Below are positions 21,801-63,757 of a stretch of DNA of 64,000 nt, one piece after another. This DNA is from Octopus vulgaris (lineage: Eukaryota): contig OX597828.1 in NCBI GenBank assembly GCA_951406725.2, forward strand, positions 74,338,001 through 74,402,000. Reading direction: 5' to 3'. Below the pieces are notes generated by a model. That model was not told the DNA's origin. It ran no database searches and worked only from the letters and a program-made list of their open reading frames with translations. Positions within the stretch are counted from its first letter, which is position 1, and the number at the start of each line of letters is the position of its first letter. Position numbers and translations under genes: made by a program.

Positions 21801-24800
21801 GGGTTCAAACTGAGTCAGACCGTGACCATCCCTCTGAGCCATGCTAGTTTGGACAAGCCTTGGGCTGAACAAGTCTGGTTTCATCGTGAGAAAGCGGAAG
21901 GGAGATAACTCTCATCCAATAGAGGATGATTTTATATGTGTGTGTGTGTGTGTGTGTATGTGTGTATATATATATATATATATTAATAAATGAAATAAAA
22001 CATATGCATATATATACACATATATGTACGTACCTACCTCTACATGTACATATACACGCATATATGAGTACAGGACACCAAAGGGACGTCGAACACAAAG
22101 AGAAACGAAAACCAAAGGAACTGGACATTTTTTTAAAAACAACAAAAAATGGAGTACAGGACAATTAACACGTTACGGGGACACGAACACAACAACATCA
22201 GTTATCAAGCGATAGTGAGGGGACAAACACACACACACACATATATATACATATATACGATGGGGTTATTTCAGTTTCTGTCTACCAAATCTACTCATAA
22301 GGCTTTGGTTGGCCCAAGGCTATAGTAGAAGACTCTTACTCAAGATGCAATGCAGTGGGACTGAACTCGGAACCATGTGGTTGGTAAGCAAGCTTCTTAT
22401 CATACAGCCACTCATACAATGGCCTTCTTTCAGTTTCTGTCTACCAAATCCACTCACAAGGCTTTGATCAACCCAAGGCTATAGTAGAAGACACCTGCCC
22501 AAGATGTCACACAGTGGGACTGAACTCGGAACCATGTGGTTGGGAAGCAAGCTTCTTACCACACAGTTATGCCTAATCTACACACATACATATTCAGAAA
22601 CATATGCCTAGATTTAACAATCCACACCAGACGAACACACACGTGGATCAGGTCATGATCTACACACACACGCACTCACACACACAATTACATACATATA
22701 CCTATGTATGATATTCTACCAACTCATACACACACATCAGAGTATGATGTGTGTGTCTGTTTGTGTGTCTGTGTTTGTGTGTCTGTGTTTGTCCCCCCAA
22801 CATCGCTTGACAACCGATGCTGGTGCGTTTATATCCTCGTAACTTAGCGGTTCAGCAAAAGACACCAACAGAATAAGTACTAGGCTTACAAAGAATAAGT
22901 CCTAGGGTCGATTTGCTCGACTAAAGGTGGTGCTCCAGCATGGCCACAGTCAAATGACTGAAACAAGTAAAAGAATAAAAGAATACACATCCACTTCCTC
23001 TTCCTTGTCCTCAGTAAACGTTTGACTGAATTACCTCCCTTAAACTTTAACAATGCAGTCACTTTCACCTGTATTGGATACGACACCTGCAAACCCCAGT
23101 ATTAAAACAGACACACTGTCACCCTGCACATTGTAATAATAATGGCACCTTACCTTCTTTGTAAGTATCAAAGTTGGCCACATACTTCACTTTCCTGGCC
23201 TGGGGATCATACACTACAATGTTCATTCCACGACCAGCATGATTAAGCCCCTTCGCCATTAATCTGGAATGGAAGAGATCAAATTATACATTTACTACAC
23301 ACTGTTTTACATACGGTTTTGAATCTTGCACGATGCACTAATTTCCACACAATATTCTTGTTATACATTTAAATTGATTTTCAACATTAACAAGAATCTG
23401 AAGGGATTTAGTAAATAACTAACCTTGCCATTATTAAGCTTACAGGGGACATTAAAACCAGGAGCTACAGATCTTATGGTTTCACTGAAAATTCTTTTAA
23501 ATTCATGAGACTTGTAACAAACCTATGTGTTTAAAGCCTCAGAAATACTTCACCATCCAAATATATTTGGAAGCTAAAGGATAATAAATATTTCAAGGAT
23601 TAGCAATTATAAAAATTACAATGACTTCATCAGCAAGAGATACGTTTGTTTGAATGCATAAATAACGACTTATCATAATCTCCATGGATATTACAAATTA
23701 TATTGTACTCATCCAATGGATGCCGATTATGGTCACCAAAAAAGTGATCTGTGGAAACTCACATAGCAATGTATCAAATATTTATGAAATTCCATCCCTG
23801 GATGATGATGGTCGTCATCATCATCATCATCATCATATATATATATATATATATATATATATATATATATATATATATATATATATATATATATATATAT
23901 ATATATATATATATATATATATATATATATATATATATATATATATATATATATATATATATATATATATATATATATATATATATATATATATATATAT
24001 ATATATATATATATATATATATATATATATATATATATATATATAATATATGGTAAGTTGGCAGAATCGTTAGCATGCTGCATAAAATGCTTAGCAATAT
24101 TTCGTCTTTACATTATTTACATTTGACAGATATTTGTCCTCATCTTGTTTGTTGTTAACAAAACATTTCAGCTGATATACCTTCCAGCTTTCATCAGGTG
24201 TCTTGGGGAAATTTCGAACCTGGGTTCTCATTCCTAAAGTATTTTTCAATGTTGTTATTATTATTATTAGTAGTAGTAGTAGTATCATTATTATTATTAT
24301 TATTATTATCATTATTATTATTATTATCATTATTATTATTATTATCATTATTATTATTATTATTATTATTATTATCATTACTATCATTATTATTATTATT
24401 ATTATTATTATTATTATTATTACTATCATAATAATTATTATTATTATTATTCAGGACACTGCCTGGAATCAAACTTTGAATCTTGATGAAGGGTATATCA
24501 ACCAAAACATTGTGTTAACAACAAACAAGGTGAGGACAAATATCCGTCATATGTAAATAATGTACATAATTTCTCATTTCTTGAATGAATATTTCATCTG
24601 TTGCTACATTCTGAGTTCAAATTCCACAGAGATCGACTTTGCCCTTCATCCTTTTGGGGTCGTTGAAATAAGTACAAGTCAAGTACTGGGGTCGATGTGA
24701 TTAACTTATCCCCTTCCCCAATATTACTGCTCTTGTCCCTTTAGCAGAAAGGAGGAGGAGGAGGAGGAGTAGTAGTAGGTAAATACATAGATAGATAGAT

Positions 24801-27800
24801 GTAGATGTCAGGGTGACAGTGAAAAGAAGTGTGTGTGTGTGTGTGTGAGTGTGTATGTGCATATGCGTTTAATTCACTTACAATCTTTCATCGGCACATA
24901 TTTTGGGATAGTCCAGGTTCTCCTTCCCAGTGTAAAGATGGACTGAAAAAGAGTCGTCTGGGCAAACATTTTCCATGCCACAGTTTGCTATACTCTCTCC
25001 ATGTAAAATTTTTCCTCCTGTTAGTATTTCTGTCACAACCGAGGGGACTGGTTGGATGGGACCCACTGGAAAGTAAATGAATAAAAACCAAAAACTAAAG
25101 ACAAATGATATAAATATAAATATATAAGATTTAGGGATCAAGATGTAGGAAGAAAGTTAGCTTCAAACAATCCATGATAAGTATAAAAAACAACTTCCAG
25201 GGACAATGGTGGTTTATTGAGACGAAAGGCTGTGGATTTTTTTCATCTCAAAGTACGATAAACTGAAAAAATAAAATTACTATTTTTAAATCTCACAACG
25301 TAAGATATTCAGCAACAGTACATTGCAGTAAAGATTGTTTGCTGACATAACATGGCAGTTCTGGTTTAGGACGAATGTTGCTGTAATTTATCCCCAGGAG
25401 ACATTGTCTCCAGCTCTGGCTATATGACACAATCTGTTCGCTTGTTCAAAAATATAAGGACACAGATTGTGTTGTATAGCCAGCTGGAGACGATGTCTCC
25501 TAGGGCTAAATTACAGCAACATTCATCCTAAACCAAGACTGCCGTGTTATGTTGGCAAACAATCTTTGCTACTGAAAAAAGTCAAGGTAGGTAACCAGTG
25601 TTGCCAGGTGTACGAATAAGAATACAAGAGTTAAGGAATGGAGTCGATAAATTTTACTTACTCCATTTCTGCATCTTCCACGCAACATTCACTAAGTTAG
25701 GAACAAGTGACACACACACACACACACACACACACACACACACACACATGATGCTATTGTTCACAAAAACATGGATTAAAACATGAGACATATTGACAGG
25801 AAATAGTATTGAAATACCAGTCATACTCACTGGGCATATCAAAGCATCCACTTTTCTCAATGGCACCAGCAAAATTCCTCTTGTTACTCTTCAACTGTTA
25901 AACAATCATATACGAATATATAAATATATATGTTAGAAGGTTTGGAAATGATGTACAGGTATTATATATTAGAAGAAATGAGGTACTCAGAAATCTGGAT
26001 GGGTTTATATTTACAGATATTTATTAATATGTCACATGTTTTTGTAAATCATATATTAGCGCTTGCATCCACTCTAGTGGAGTCATCAGATTGAACTTTT
26101 TCAGGAATTTTGTCTCTTTTTATAGTATTATTGAGTGTGTAGGGGAGAAATATAAGATAGTACAAGAAGGTGAGGAATGGGGAGAAAGTGAGAGAGAGCA
26201 TGTGTGTGTGTGTGTGTGTGCGTGTGTGTGTGCGTGTGTGTGTGCGTGTGTGTGCGTGTATCTGAAAGGAGTGTAAATGGAAAAGAGAAGGAAAGGAAGA
26301 AGGAAGAGAGAAAGAAGGAAAAAAAAGAGTGTTCCACTGACTGAATCAAGTGGAACACTCATTATCACAACTAATGGAGTACCCAGCAATATATATATAT
26401 ATGTGTGTGTGTGTGTATATATATATATATATATATATATATATATATATGTATATATATATATATATATATATTATATATATATATATATATATATATA
26501 TATATATATATATATATATATATATATATATATATATATATATATATATATATATATATATATATATATATATATATATATATATATATATATATATATA
26601 TATATATATATATATATATATATATATATATATATATATATATATGTGTGTGTGTGTGTGTGTGTGTGTGTGTGTGTGTGTGTGTGTGTGTATATTCTTT
26701 TATTCTTTTACTTGCTTCAGTCATTTGAGCTCAGTCTTTTTTGCCGAACTGCTAAGTTACAGGGACGTAAACACACCAACATCAGTTGTCAAGTGATGGT
26801 GGGGAACAAACATAGACAACAAAGACACATACACATAAATATATACATATATAGGCGCAGGAGTGGCTGTGTGGTAAGTAGCTTGCTAACCAACCACATG
26901 GTTCCAGGTTCAGTCCTACTGCGTGGCATCTTGAGCAAGTGTCTTCTGCTATAGCCCCGGGCCGACCAATGCCTTGTGAGTGCATTTGGTAGACGGAAAC
27001 TGAAAGAAGCCTGTCGTATATACGTATATATATATATGTATGTGTGTGTGTTTGTGTGTCTATGTTTGTCCCCCTAGTATTGCTTGACAACCGATGCTGG
27101 TGTGGTTACGTCCCCGTCACTTAGCGGTTCGGCAAAAGAGACCGATAGAATAAGTACTGAGCTTACAAAGAATAAATCCCGGTGTCGATTTGCTCGACTA
27201 AAGGCGGTGCTCCAGCATGGCCGCAGTCAAATGACTGAAACAAGTAAAAGAGTAAAAGAGTATATATATATGCAGAGTTGGCCAAAAGTCACCCAACAGT
27301 AAATCAAAAAATTCCTTAAATACTTAATATTCAATTTTATTTATTCATTCCAATTATGAATGTATAATAATTGAATGTTGTGAGTTAAAATCAAGGTTTT
27401 TTAGGAGGTTTTTTTAACATTTGTCTATTTATTTAGCAAAGTTTTATGTAAAATAATTCTTTGTTTTAATCTTTGAATTAAATGGGTTTTGATTTACTGT
27501 CGGATACATATATATATATATATATATATATATATATATATATATACGACAAGCTACTTTCAGTTTCCATCTACAAATTCGACTCACAAGGCTTTGGTTT
27601 AGCTAGAGGCTGTAGTAGAATCACTTGCTCAAGGTGCCATGCAGTGGGACTGAACCAGGAACCACATGGTTGAGAAGCAAGCTTCTTACCACACAACCAT
27701 GCCTGCACCTATGTATGTATGTATGTACATATGTATGGTTGTGTGTATGTATGTATGTATGTATATATGTACGTATGCATATGCGTGTGTACGTAATTAT

Positions 27801-63388: not shown

Positions 63389-63722
63389 TAATCTTATGTA
63401 CGTGTGATCTTTCATTATTTTTCCCTCTATACCTACGTGAATTAATTTTGAGCAAACATTGTCTGGGAGACTTTTATTATAGTAGAGGAAATAGCTAAAA
63501 CTTTTTAGCTGCTATTTCTAATAGTTCAGTGTGTGGTAAAGTAAATTATTTTACTGAACCCTAATTATATAACGTAATGTTTTAAATATACCGTAAATGG
63601 TCTTTTTACATACTGAACACTACTTGGTAAAATTATTAATTAATAATTAATTAATTTTACCCTTTTATTATTGACTACATATATGTTGGCGATTTTTTTT
63701 CCTCTGTCTTCCCTTCTCCTAT

Positions 63723-63757
63723 GTTTCCGACGAAGAGCTCCGCTCGAAACGTTAAAC
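63723..63757 (+). ncRNA. Minimal hammerhead with C4 variant core
   Basis: GTTT CCGACGA A GAGC TCC GCTC GAAA CG TT AAAC. Confidence 0.7.

What the first reader, a model, noticed from the sequence alone, without database searches (positions are those of the whole stretch)
24157..63757. A population of ORF-less, mostly inverted-repeat elements each carrying a minimal hammerhead ribozyme (about 12 motifs, about 9 sequence families in 64 kb)
Seen: type I hammerhead motifs (stem I, NUGANNA, stem II, GAAA, very short and often palindromic stem III, UH, stem I') at 24157, 26054, 35065, 51621, 51710, 51769, 57415, 58519, 60156, 61371, 63326 and 63723. Their host sequences share little primary similarity between families. 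Many share one architecture: a 200-500 bp unit with the ribozyme next to an inverted partial copy of the unit, often in TA-rich or (TA)n sites. Known: Penelope-like element pseudo-LTRs carry such minimal hammerheads and often insert with an inverted partial pLTR, and retrozymes are non-autonomous hammerhead elements. Inference: this is a diverse, high-copy set of non-autonomous Penelope-mobilised ribozyme elements that a repeat annotator would call MITEs or unknown. I cannot tell whether these families are already described.
Basis: partly seen in the sequence, partly recalled or inferred. Interest (0 to 1): 0.85.

Follow-up and report, generated by a model that had tools for sequence, protein, structure and literature searches.

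The report
Penelope retrotransposon ends carrying hammerhead ribozymes
The ribozyme-like motifs are real and mark the ends of Penelope-type retrotransposons scattered about once every 17 kb through this animal genome, which is a known kind of thing, except that one abundant family begins with a tRNA-derived sequence that likely lets it spread as a SINE-like parasite of Penelope.

Summary
All 12 sites belong to nine interspersed families. Eight pass a type I hammerhead descriptor, three are decayed copies of families that pass, and one family (26054) has a non-canonical core. The link to Penelope-like elements (PLEs) holds: 96 of 285 insertions are inverted pairs, all with 3' ends outward, mostly one short and one tailed end. 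'ORF-less, non-autonomous' is only partly right. Families D (60156), H (51621) and I (26054) are 5'-truncated 3' ends of RT + GIY-YIG elements. C and E are ORF-less tandem units (retrozyme-like), F and G partial tandems, and B is unresolved. Family A (24157, 51710, 51769) is the surprise: a ~300-nt unit with a tRNA-Arg-like head, (AAT)n, hammerhead and tail. It starts 19-31 nt after the stop of a decayed Poseidon-type ORF in some copies, yet 26 of 30 head-bearing copies lack that upstream sequence and mostly start at the head. Random sampling gives 30 motifs in 520 kb (shuffles ~0.5), about 1.6x10^5 genome-wide, so the window is ordinary for this genome. Cleavage and Pol III transcription are untested. 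Verdict: a known kind, with one new variant (a PLE pseudo-LTR that looks like a tRNA SINE).

The parts
24107..24570 (.). Family A insertion. Inverted arm 24107-24485 (-) runs from the short 3' end through the hammerhead and an expanded (AAT)n into the B-box half of the tRNA head; direct arm 24487-24570 (+). Hammerhead at 24157-24202 (-) decayed.
25933..26301 (-). Family I: 5'-truncated 3' UTR of a Neptune-type PLE; hammerhead-like motif at about 26054-26092 with GCAA for GAAA and about 2 bp of stem I
34900..35232 (+). Family G: old ~460-bp unit found in partial tandems; hammerhead 35065-35120 with a C.A mismatch at the foot of stem II
39724..39800 (+).
51590..51699 (-). Family H: 3' end of a Hydra-clade-like PLE; hammerhead 51621-51683
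51702..51894 (.). Family A head-to-head pair; hammerheads 51710-51755 (-) and 51769-51814 (+); right arm carries the long tailed end
57320..57506 (-). Family B decayed copy; motif at 57415 has AAAA for GAAA
58343..58809 (.). Family C (360-bp ORF-less tandem unit elsewhere): inverted pair, short left end, tailed right end; hammerhead 58519-58561 (-) with U3-A8
59969..60285 (.). Family D: 3' end of a divergent Neptune-type PLE; inverted pair, tailed left arm; hammerhead 60156-60205 (+) with G3-C8
61211..61726 (.). Family E (546-bp ORF-less tandem unit, copies ~99% alike): inverted pair; hammerhead 61371-61448 (+) with an A.C mismatch at the foot of stem II
61844..63675 (.). Family F (~560-bp unit): inverted pair whose left arm (61844-62037 and about 63285-63319) is split by a LINE fragment; hammerhead 63326-63388 (+), decayed in this copy
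62038..63284 (+). Nested 5'-truncated LINE fragment (339-aa open frame 62151-63170, RVT_1 E 3e-18) inside family F; not part of the ribozyme element
63685..63853 (+). Family B young copy (~200 nt, ends in (TA)n); hammerhead 63723-63757 with U4C

Best explanation
The motifs are hammerhead-like folds in the terminal repeats (pseudo-LTRs) of Penelope-like retrotransposons, and the insertions were likely made by Penelope RT/GIY-YIG proteins. Shown: D, H and I are truncated 3' ends of protein-coding elements; C and E occur as ORF-less tandem arrays; A is a tRNA-headed unit that also forms the 3' repeat of a decayed Poseidon-type element. Inferred: the protein nicks both strands of the target (a (TA)n tract for most families; mixed sequence with 7-15 bp duplications for A). 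It primes reverse transcription at two fixed sites of the RNA's 3' region, and two 5'-truncated cDNAs join head to head, giving the inverted pair with one short and one tailed end. C, E, F and G would be retrozyme-like units mobilised in trans. [quoted passage not shown] The ribozymes are predicted to cleave weakly, as dimers or with protein help; cleavage was not tested and may not be needed for insertion.
For: Descriptor versus shuffles. Compensatory changes in the family-C group: 6 of 14 pairs, including the 3-8 pair; 98.8% of cells paired; 6 distinct rows only. C-G, U-A and G-C at positions 3-8 across families. 96 of 285 insertions inverted, all 3'-out, none 5'-out. One long plus one short end in 61 of 89 classed pairs, including 13/13 in the ORF-linked family D and 11/11 in the ORF-less family C. 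TA at outer 3' ends in 39/46 (B), 36/47 (D), 33/45 (I), against a 4.5% background. Same-strand PLE ORF within 1.5 kb upstream: A 4/59, D 4/34 (own lineage), H 2/35, I 6/39 (own lineage); GIY-YIG E 2.3e-5 for the D partner. Many 781-aa GIY-YIG frames in the genome, one checked as RT + GIY-YIG with a hammerhead in its 3' UTR. Family A head aligns best to a tRNA-Arg(TCG) gene among 30 tRNA genes, z 7.7; 26 of 30 head-selected loci lack the ORF-side upstream sequence; duplications >=8 bp flank 15 of 59 insertions against 6 of 300 controls. Literature: PMC4209133, PMC8557442, PMC11167929.
Against: No cleavage data. Monomer folds are mostly no more stable than shuffles (only 60156 has z < -2). In RNA-seq of three runs from one study (species label B, not shown to be this species), family A reads lie equally on both strands, 80% run on into unlike sequence, and no end pile-ups appear, so there is no sign of a discrete Pol III transcript or cleavage product. 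The family A head is not recognised by ARAGORN or Rfam tRNA; tRNA-Thr and tRNA-Ala score nearly as well as Arg; its lack of T4 runs is not significant (69% of shuffles). No autonomous partner was found for B, C, E, F or G, and the A-linked ORFs seen are all broken. Most loci were picked by similarity to window copies, which inflates inverted and head-bearing copies.
Confidence: 0.8

Rival explanations
1. All nine families are just 5'-truncated copies of autonomous PLEs; none is a separate non-autonomous element, and the tRNA-like stretch in A is a passive passenger in a 3' UTR.
For: True for D, H and I. A is ORF-linked in 4 of 59 insertions and 1 of 8 randomly sampled loci runs past the head into the ORF end. 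One B copy (L306) and an old relative (L092) extend beyond the usual B start.
Against: C forms arrays of complete 359-360-bp units (5 in a row in L108) and E of 546-bp units (4 in L316) with no coding sequence between. A shows a sharp 5' boundary 4-6 nt before the tRNA +1. B starts cluster within 30 nt in 39 of 46 arms.
Confidence: 0.12
2. Family A is an ordinary LINE-dependent tRNA SINE that once inserted behind a Penelope ORF and carries a hammerhead by inheritance.
For: tRNA head, fixed 5' end, variable-length target duplications and no TA preference (2 of 93 ends) are also LINE/SINE traits.
Against: No poly(A) or simple-repeat tail; two discrete 3' ends about 45 nt apart; 34 of 59 insertions (5 of 8 random loci) are head-to-head duplicates with 3' ends outward, the same signature as the ORF-linked family D. 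ORF-plus-head copies are independent insertions about 88% alike; L322 shows a complete inverted repeat / ORF / repeat layout.
Confidence: 0.06
3. The elements are MITEs or foldback DNA transposons and the hammerhead matches are coincidental.
For: Inverted arms and TA flanks superficially fit Tc1/mariner MITEs.
Against: Arm lengths vary with 5' truncation, the two ends differ by a tail, many copies are single arms or direct tandems, several families run into RT/GIY-YIG ORFs, and the fold covaries.
Confidence: 0.02

Closest known systems
Minimal hammerheads (min-HHR) in metazoan PLE pseudo-LTRs (Cervera and de la Pena 2014, PMC4209133; parts 1-2 of 4 read)
   Same: Type I fold, short palindromic helix III, extra base between 9 and 10.1, U3-A8 variant, many divergent families per genome, mostly solo motifs from truncated PLEs, pairs 100-700 bp apart on opposite strands.
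   Different: Far higher density here (about 1 per 17 kb, ~10^5 motifs, against thousands in the genomes they list); G3-C8, U4C and stem II foot mismatches fixed in whole families.
Non-LTR retrozymes (Cervera and de la Pena 2020, PMC7229834, passages; Li et al. bioRxiv 10.64898/2026.07.22.740005, parts 1-3 of 5)
   Same: ORF-less tandem units of 300-600 bp with one type I hammerhead per unit, related to PLE pseudo-LTRs (families C, E; partly F, G).
   Different: Here most copies are dispersed, truncated and inverted with PLE tails in (TA)n; circular RNA and cleavage not shown; no partner identified.
Neptune, Hydra and Penelope/Poseidon clades of PLEs (Craig et al. 2021, PMC8557442, passages and the Hydra section)
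   Same: C-terminal GIY-YIG; CX2-5CxxC linker in the D and I partners; CxCX5C linker in the H partner; no linker in the A partner; inverted 5'-truncated copies, tails, (TA)n bias.
   Different: Clades assigned by motifs only, no tree; tails here reach about 40-115 nt against the 30-40 bp described; a tRNA-derived start of the pseudo-LTR is not mentioned in the passages read.
Schistosome Sm-alpha / Sj-alpha SINE-like hammerhead repeats (seen only through passages of the review PMC6765202)
   Same: Pol III-type promoter followed by a hammerhead in a short non-coding retroposon.
   Different: Those are described as tandem repeats with no named autonomous partner; family A is mostly dispersed or inverted and is physically the terminal repeat of a Poseidon-type ORF.
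Helenus, Ajax and Cassandra (TRIMp3; Kojima 2024, PMC10886601, abstract, introduction and discussion)
   Same: A small-RNA-derived Pol III promoter inside the terminal repeat of a retroelement, serving a non-autonomous form.
   Different: Those are LTR elements with PBS/PPT; that paper considers sharing of such a repeat with the autonomous partner unlikely, whereas A's repeat is shared with ORF-bearing copies of a PLE.

Membership tests
Type I hammerhead ribozyme | Conserved core with 3-8 pair and three helices | tested here: met
   8 of 12 window sites pass; families A-H keep the core in most copies
Type I hammerhead ribozyme | Core and helix I in family I (26054) | tested here: not met
   GCAA in 27 of 35 copies; helix I about 2 bp
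Type I hammerhead ribozyme | Compensatory changes in helices | tested here: met
   (family-C group, 6 distinct rows, 6 of 14 pairs); across families
Type I hammerhead ribozyme | Site-specific self-cleavage | not testable with these tools
   RNA-seq showed no end pile-up; fragmented libraries are weak for this
Penelope-like element (EN+) | RT plus C-terminal GIY-YIG upstream of the repeat (families A, D, H, I) | tested here: met
   the A partner's GIY-YIG has no Pfam hit and is called from motifs and 64% identity to P0024
Penelope-like element (EN+) | RT plus GIY-YIG linked to families B, C, E, F, G | tested here: not met
   B 0/45, G 0/14; C 1/18, E 1/16, F 3/25 lie beyond the ends of other PLE lineages and are read as nested insertions
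Penelope-like element (EN+) | Inverted 5'-truncated partner copy and optional tail | tested here: met
   weak for B (1 inverted of 45) and no tail resolved for B or I
Penelope-like element (EN+) | Clade by RT phylogeny | not tested
   no reference set at hand; motif-based assignment against PMC8557442
Non-LTR retrozyme | At least two consecutive ORF-less units each with a hammerhead (C, E) | tested here: met
   L108, L031 (C); L316 (E)
Non-LTR retrozyme | At least two consecutive units (F, G) | tested here: inconclusive
   only partial tandems of 1.2-1.5 units seen
Non-LTR retrozyme | Circular RNA product | not tested
tRNA-derived SINE (family A) | tRNA-derived 5' head with A and B boxes | tested here: met
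   alignment to genomic tRNA genes, best tRNA-Arg(TCG), z 7.7, 0 of 200 shuffles; not detected by ARAGORN or Rfam; box positions read by eye from recalled consensus
tRNA-derived SINE (family A) | Short non-coding unit with fixed 5' end, target duplications, high copy | tested here: met
   ~300 nt; 8 loci in 520 kb, about 4x10^4
tRNA-derived SINE (family A) | Pol III transcription | tested here: inconclusive
   one search shows reads on both strands, mostly within longer transcripts
tRNA-derived SINE (family A) | LINE-derived 3' end with poly(A) or simple-repeat tail | tested here: not met
   3' end is a PLE repeat with two discrete ends; so it works like a SINE but is not a classical LINE-dependent one
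MITE | Fixed terminal inverted repeats and fixed internal spacer | tested here: not met

The most novel reading that the evidence does not exclude
Family A is a Penelope-dependent SINE born inside its own partner. A Poseidon-type element acquired a tRNA-Arg-derived Pol III promoter at the start of its pseudo-LTR, and that repeat (tRNA head, hammerhead, two RT start sites) became a free ~300-nt retroposon with tens of thousands of copies. It would be the PLE counterpart of SINEs and TRIMp3, and may explain the schistosome alpha repeats.
Probability: 0.6. Interest if true: 0.7.

Novelty: new variant of a known kind. Interest (0 to 1): 0.52.

Why it matters
PLE-hammerhead remnants and retrozymes are known, so most of the finding is an annotation gain: about 10^5 motifs invisible to Rfam in one genome, and many natural core variants (U3-A8, G3-C8, U4C, A13C, stem II foot mismatches) that can be assayed side by side. 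The shared short/long end pattern in coding and non-coding families gives a genomic test of the two-start-site, both-strand priming seen in vitro (PMC11167929). Family A matters more. If Pol III drives it, it extends SINE-type parasitism to a third class of retrotransposon with the autonomous parent still attached, and supplies a 300-nt natural substrate for the Poseidon in vitro system.

Tried and rejected
First descriptor without the extra base after A9 found 1 site only; it was too narrow. Rfam scans gave no hammerhead or tRNA hit. ARAGORN found no tRNA in 10 family A loci. The T4-terminator argument for Pol III was dropped as not significant. The first ORF-adjacency count was discarded because one query held SINE and microsatellite sequence; it was redone. 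MAFFT alignment across unrelated families did not align the helices and was not used. The array map for E failed on its anchor; the 546-bp spacing comes from hammerhead positions in that call and. BLASTP between the D partner and the 781-aa element was not significant. No RNA holder was listed as certain for family A in the run index, which is no evidence either way. The idea that the inverted arm supplies the dimer partner was rejected: it is antisense, and a read-through RNA folds into one long hairpin (-106.8 kcal/mol, z -15.6). The idea that F is the repeat of the 781-aa element was rejected: no match to its 3' UTR. Lunse et al. 2017 and Ohshima and Okada 1994 were not available; Repbase and Dfam could not be searched, so these families may already have names there.
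Full report
Setting. The window is C15:74338001-74402000 of G000, a 2.8-Gb animal assembly. 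From size and repeat landscape I take it for an octopus-like cephalopod; that is recall, not a tool result. The window is 37% GC and full of microsatellites and interspersed repeats.

Observation. A strict type I hammerhead descriptor finds 4 sites against 0.03 in 60 shuffles. A wider one, set after seeing the sites, finds 7 against 0.08 in 100 shuffles, and an eighth passes with one unpaired base before GAAA. Searches of the own genome with each window copy returned 40 scored relatives per family, with 1,318-2,666 first-look candidates for eight families and 47 for G. In aligned copies the core is kept: C 26/26 GAAA, E 27/27, D 31/33, F 15/16, H 32/38, A 58/66, B 39/44, G 9/12; family I has GCAA in 27/35. 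So 24157, 57415 and 63326 are decayed members of good families, and 26054 is a non-canonical variant of doubtful activity. Position 3-8 is C-G, U-A or G-C in different families. Within the family-C group, 6 of 14 pairs show double changes, with 0 of 500 shuffles reaching the covariation score; only 6 distinct, related rows were counted. Rfam sees none of this. Folding energies alone do not single the motifs out.

Abundance. In 52 stretches of 10 kb taken at round coordinates, the wider descriptor found 30 motifs in 20 clusters, in 16 of 52 stretches, against about 0.5 in shuffles. That is one per 17 kb, about 1.6x10^5 genome-wide (bootstrap 0.8-2.6x10^5); 7 of the 30 lie in one array. The window (7 in 64 kb) is about twice the average. 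Families A and B had 8 and 7 loci in the sample, about 4x10^4 each; the others had 0-3.

Architecture. Natural single copies were used as references and mapped on all loci held: 285 insertions not cut by a locus edge. 96 are inverted pairs, all with 3' ends outward and none the other way. Seven families have two discrete 3' ends about 40-115 nt apart, and 61 of 89 inverted pairs have one of each (C 11/11, D 13/13, A 19/34, E 6/9, F 5/8, H 5/9, G 2/5). Outer 3' ends abut TA repeats in B, C, D, E, F, H and I (45-85%), less in G (4/19) and not in A (2/93); the background is 4.5%. These loci were mostly chosen by similarity to window copies, so the proportions are biased, though 5 of 8 randomly sampled A loci are also inverted. 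This is the PLE pattern described in PMC8557442 (passages), and it excludes MITEs. The inverted arm is antisense and would bury the ribozymes in a long hairpin, so it is not a dimer partner.

Which families are coding. The genome holds 6,136 GIY-YIG candidates, many in 781-aa open frames. One was checked: RVT_1 E 5e-6 (below the Pfam cut-off), a CxxC linker, GIY-YIG E 5e-7, and its own hammerhead in the 3' UTR. Family D continues upstream through a microsatellite-rich UTR into RT and GIY-YIG in L250, L251 and L253, 3 of 12 extended loci, two of them chosen because signs were already seen. Family H continues into a short RT and an endonuclease with the CxCX5C linker that defines the Hydra clade (definition in PMC8557442). 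Family I continues into a Neptune-type endonuclease in 5 of 20 extended loci. These three are truncated coding elements, not non-autonomous families. B (0/45) and G (0/14) have no upstream ORF. The few ORFs near C, E and F belong to lineages with other 3' ends. C forms arrays of 359-360-bp units and E of 546-bp units; F and G show partial tandems. C and E meet the working definition of a non-LTR retrozyme in the 2026 preprint. B is a ~200-nt monomer with a common 5' start and rare longer copies; its origin is open.

Family A. Full copies are about 300 nt: a 76-nt head, (AAT/AAC)n, the hammerhead, and short or long ends. The head aligns to all 30 genomic tRNA genes tested better than most shuffles, best to tRNA-Arg(TCG) (z 7.7), closely followed by Thr and Ala; ARAGORN and Rfam do not call it. 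Of 30 loci chosen by the head, 23 carry the hammerhead region downstream. Four continue upstream into a shared sequence and 26 do not; most of those stop 4-6 nt before the tRNA +1. The shared upstream sequence is the end of a decayed RT + endonuclease ORF whose stop lies 19-31 nt before the head. It has the DKG motif and no zinc-finger linker, and is 64% identical over the endonuclease region to P0024, a 582-aa RT protein: Penelope/Poseidon type by motif. Three such copies are about 88% alike, so ORF plus head moved as one unit. L322 shows inverted repeat, truncated ORF, repeat. Target duplications of 8-15 bp flank 15 of 59 insertions against 6 of 300 controls. In the unbiased sample three loci stop at the head and one runs about 47 nt into the ORF end. 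RNA-seq from three runs of one study covers head and hammerhead (5,520-7,595 reads per run from 11.5-12.9 million records), equally on both strands, mostly within longer RNAs, with no end pile-ups. This neither shows nor excludes Pol III transcription.

Mechanism. Shown: motif conservation, family structure, ORF linkage and end patterns. From the literature: an anole Poseidon protein cuts and extends both strands, starts reverse transcription at two internal sites that match the genomic tail, and its hammerhead cleaves only with protein and is dispensable for insertion in vitro (PMC11167929, parts 1-2 of 4). Inferred: priming on both nicked strands from the two sites, then head-to-head joining of truncated cDNAs, gives the short/long inverted pairs; C, E, F and G ride in trans; A is transcribed from its tRNA promoter. 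Whether the tRNA entered the repeat as a gene or as an older SINE cannot be told.

What is known. PMC4209133 already reports minimal hammerheads in PLE repeats, mostly solo, in divergent families, sometimes paired on opposite strands. PMC7229834 (passages) and the 2026 preprint cover retrozymes and their PLE origin. Pol III plus hammerhead is known from schistosome alpha repeats (PMC6765202, passages), and tRNA promoters in LTRs from Helenus (PMC10886601). Ten full-text searches listed no paper on hammerheads in octopus beyond 235 Rfam hits in giant squid (PMC6962438, passage), and none on a tRNA-headed PLE repeat. PMC10294476 and PMC8967140 (passages) added nothing. Subscription papers, supplements, Repbase and Dfam were not seen and could hold these families. 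Lunse et al. 2017 and the 1994 octopus SINE paper are recalled only.

Verdict. Interest 0.52.

Noticed in passing
L179:4164-6509 and many near-identical places listed: A young Neptune-type PLE with an intact 781-aa RT + GIY-YIG frame, an overlapping upstream frame, a hammerhead in the 3' UTR and (TA)n flanks; probably recently active.
   Followed up: partly
window 62038-63284 (+): LINE fragment with a 339-aa open RT frame nested in the left arm of family F.
   Followed up: partly
window 60435-61184, 20190-20904, 48483-48867; also 55509-55958: Decayed DNA-transposon remnants; a weak DDE_3 match (E 0.002) at 60483-60962 (-).
   Followed up: partly
window 25275-25572 and 55882-55997; L220, L213: Another inverted-pair family with one arm longer than the other, like the PLE families, but no hammerhead was detected; possibly the end of a hammerhead-less PLE.
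   Followed up: partly
window 17534-17812: A 279-bp imperfect inverted repeat with no other copy in the fetched loci and no hammerhead.
   Followed up: partly
window 13650-13690 (-): A hammerhead-like core closed by a 7-bp helix I but lacking helices II and III; no other copy seen, may be chance.
   Followed up: partly
window 5461-6394, 35760-35991, 45845-46074: A 241-bp tandem repeat (about 4 units, 94-96% alike) with dispersed relatives; no hammerhead found.
   Followed up: no
window 11-309 and 3454-3749: Two opposite-strand copies of a common ~300-bp interspersed family, not one large inverted element.
   Followed up: partly
L019, L062, L069, L111, L130, L132, L135, L156, L186 and others: Further hammerhead families outside the nine (18 motif types with two or more copies, some being subfamilies), including a B-like family with an altered position 6 in the core and long pyrimidine-rich upstream sequence.
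   Followed up: partly
L263, L302: Hydra-clade-like PLE (CxCX5C linker) in this genome, with over a thousand first-look candidates for its 3' end.
   Followed up: partly
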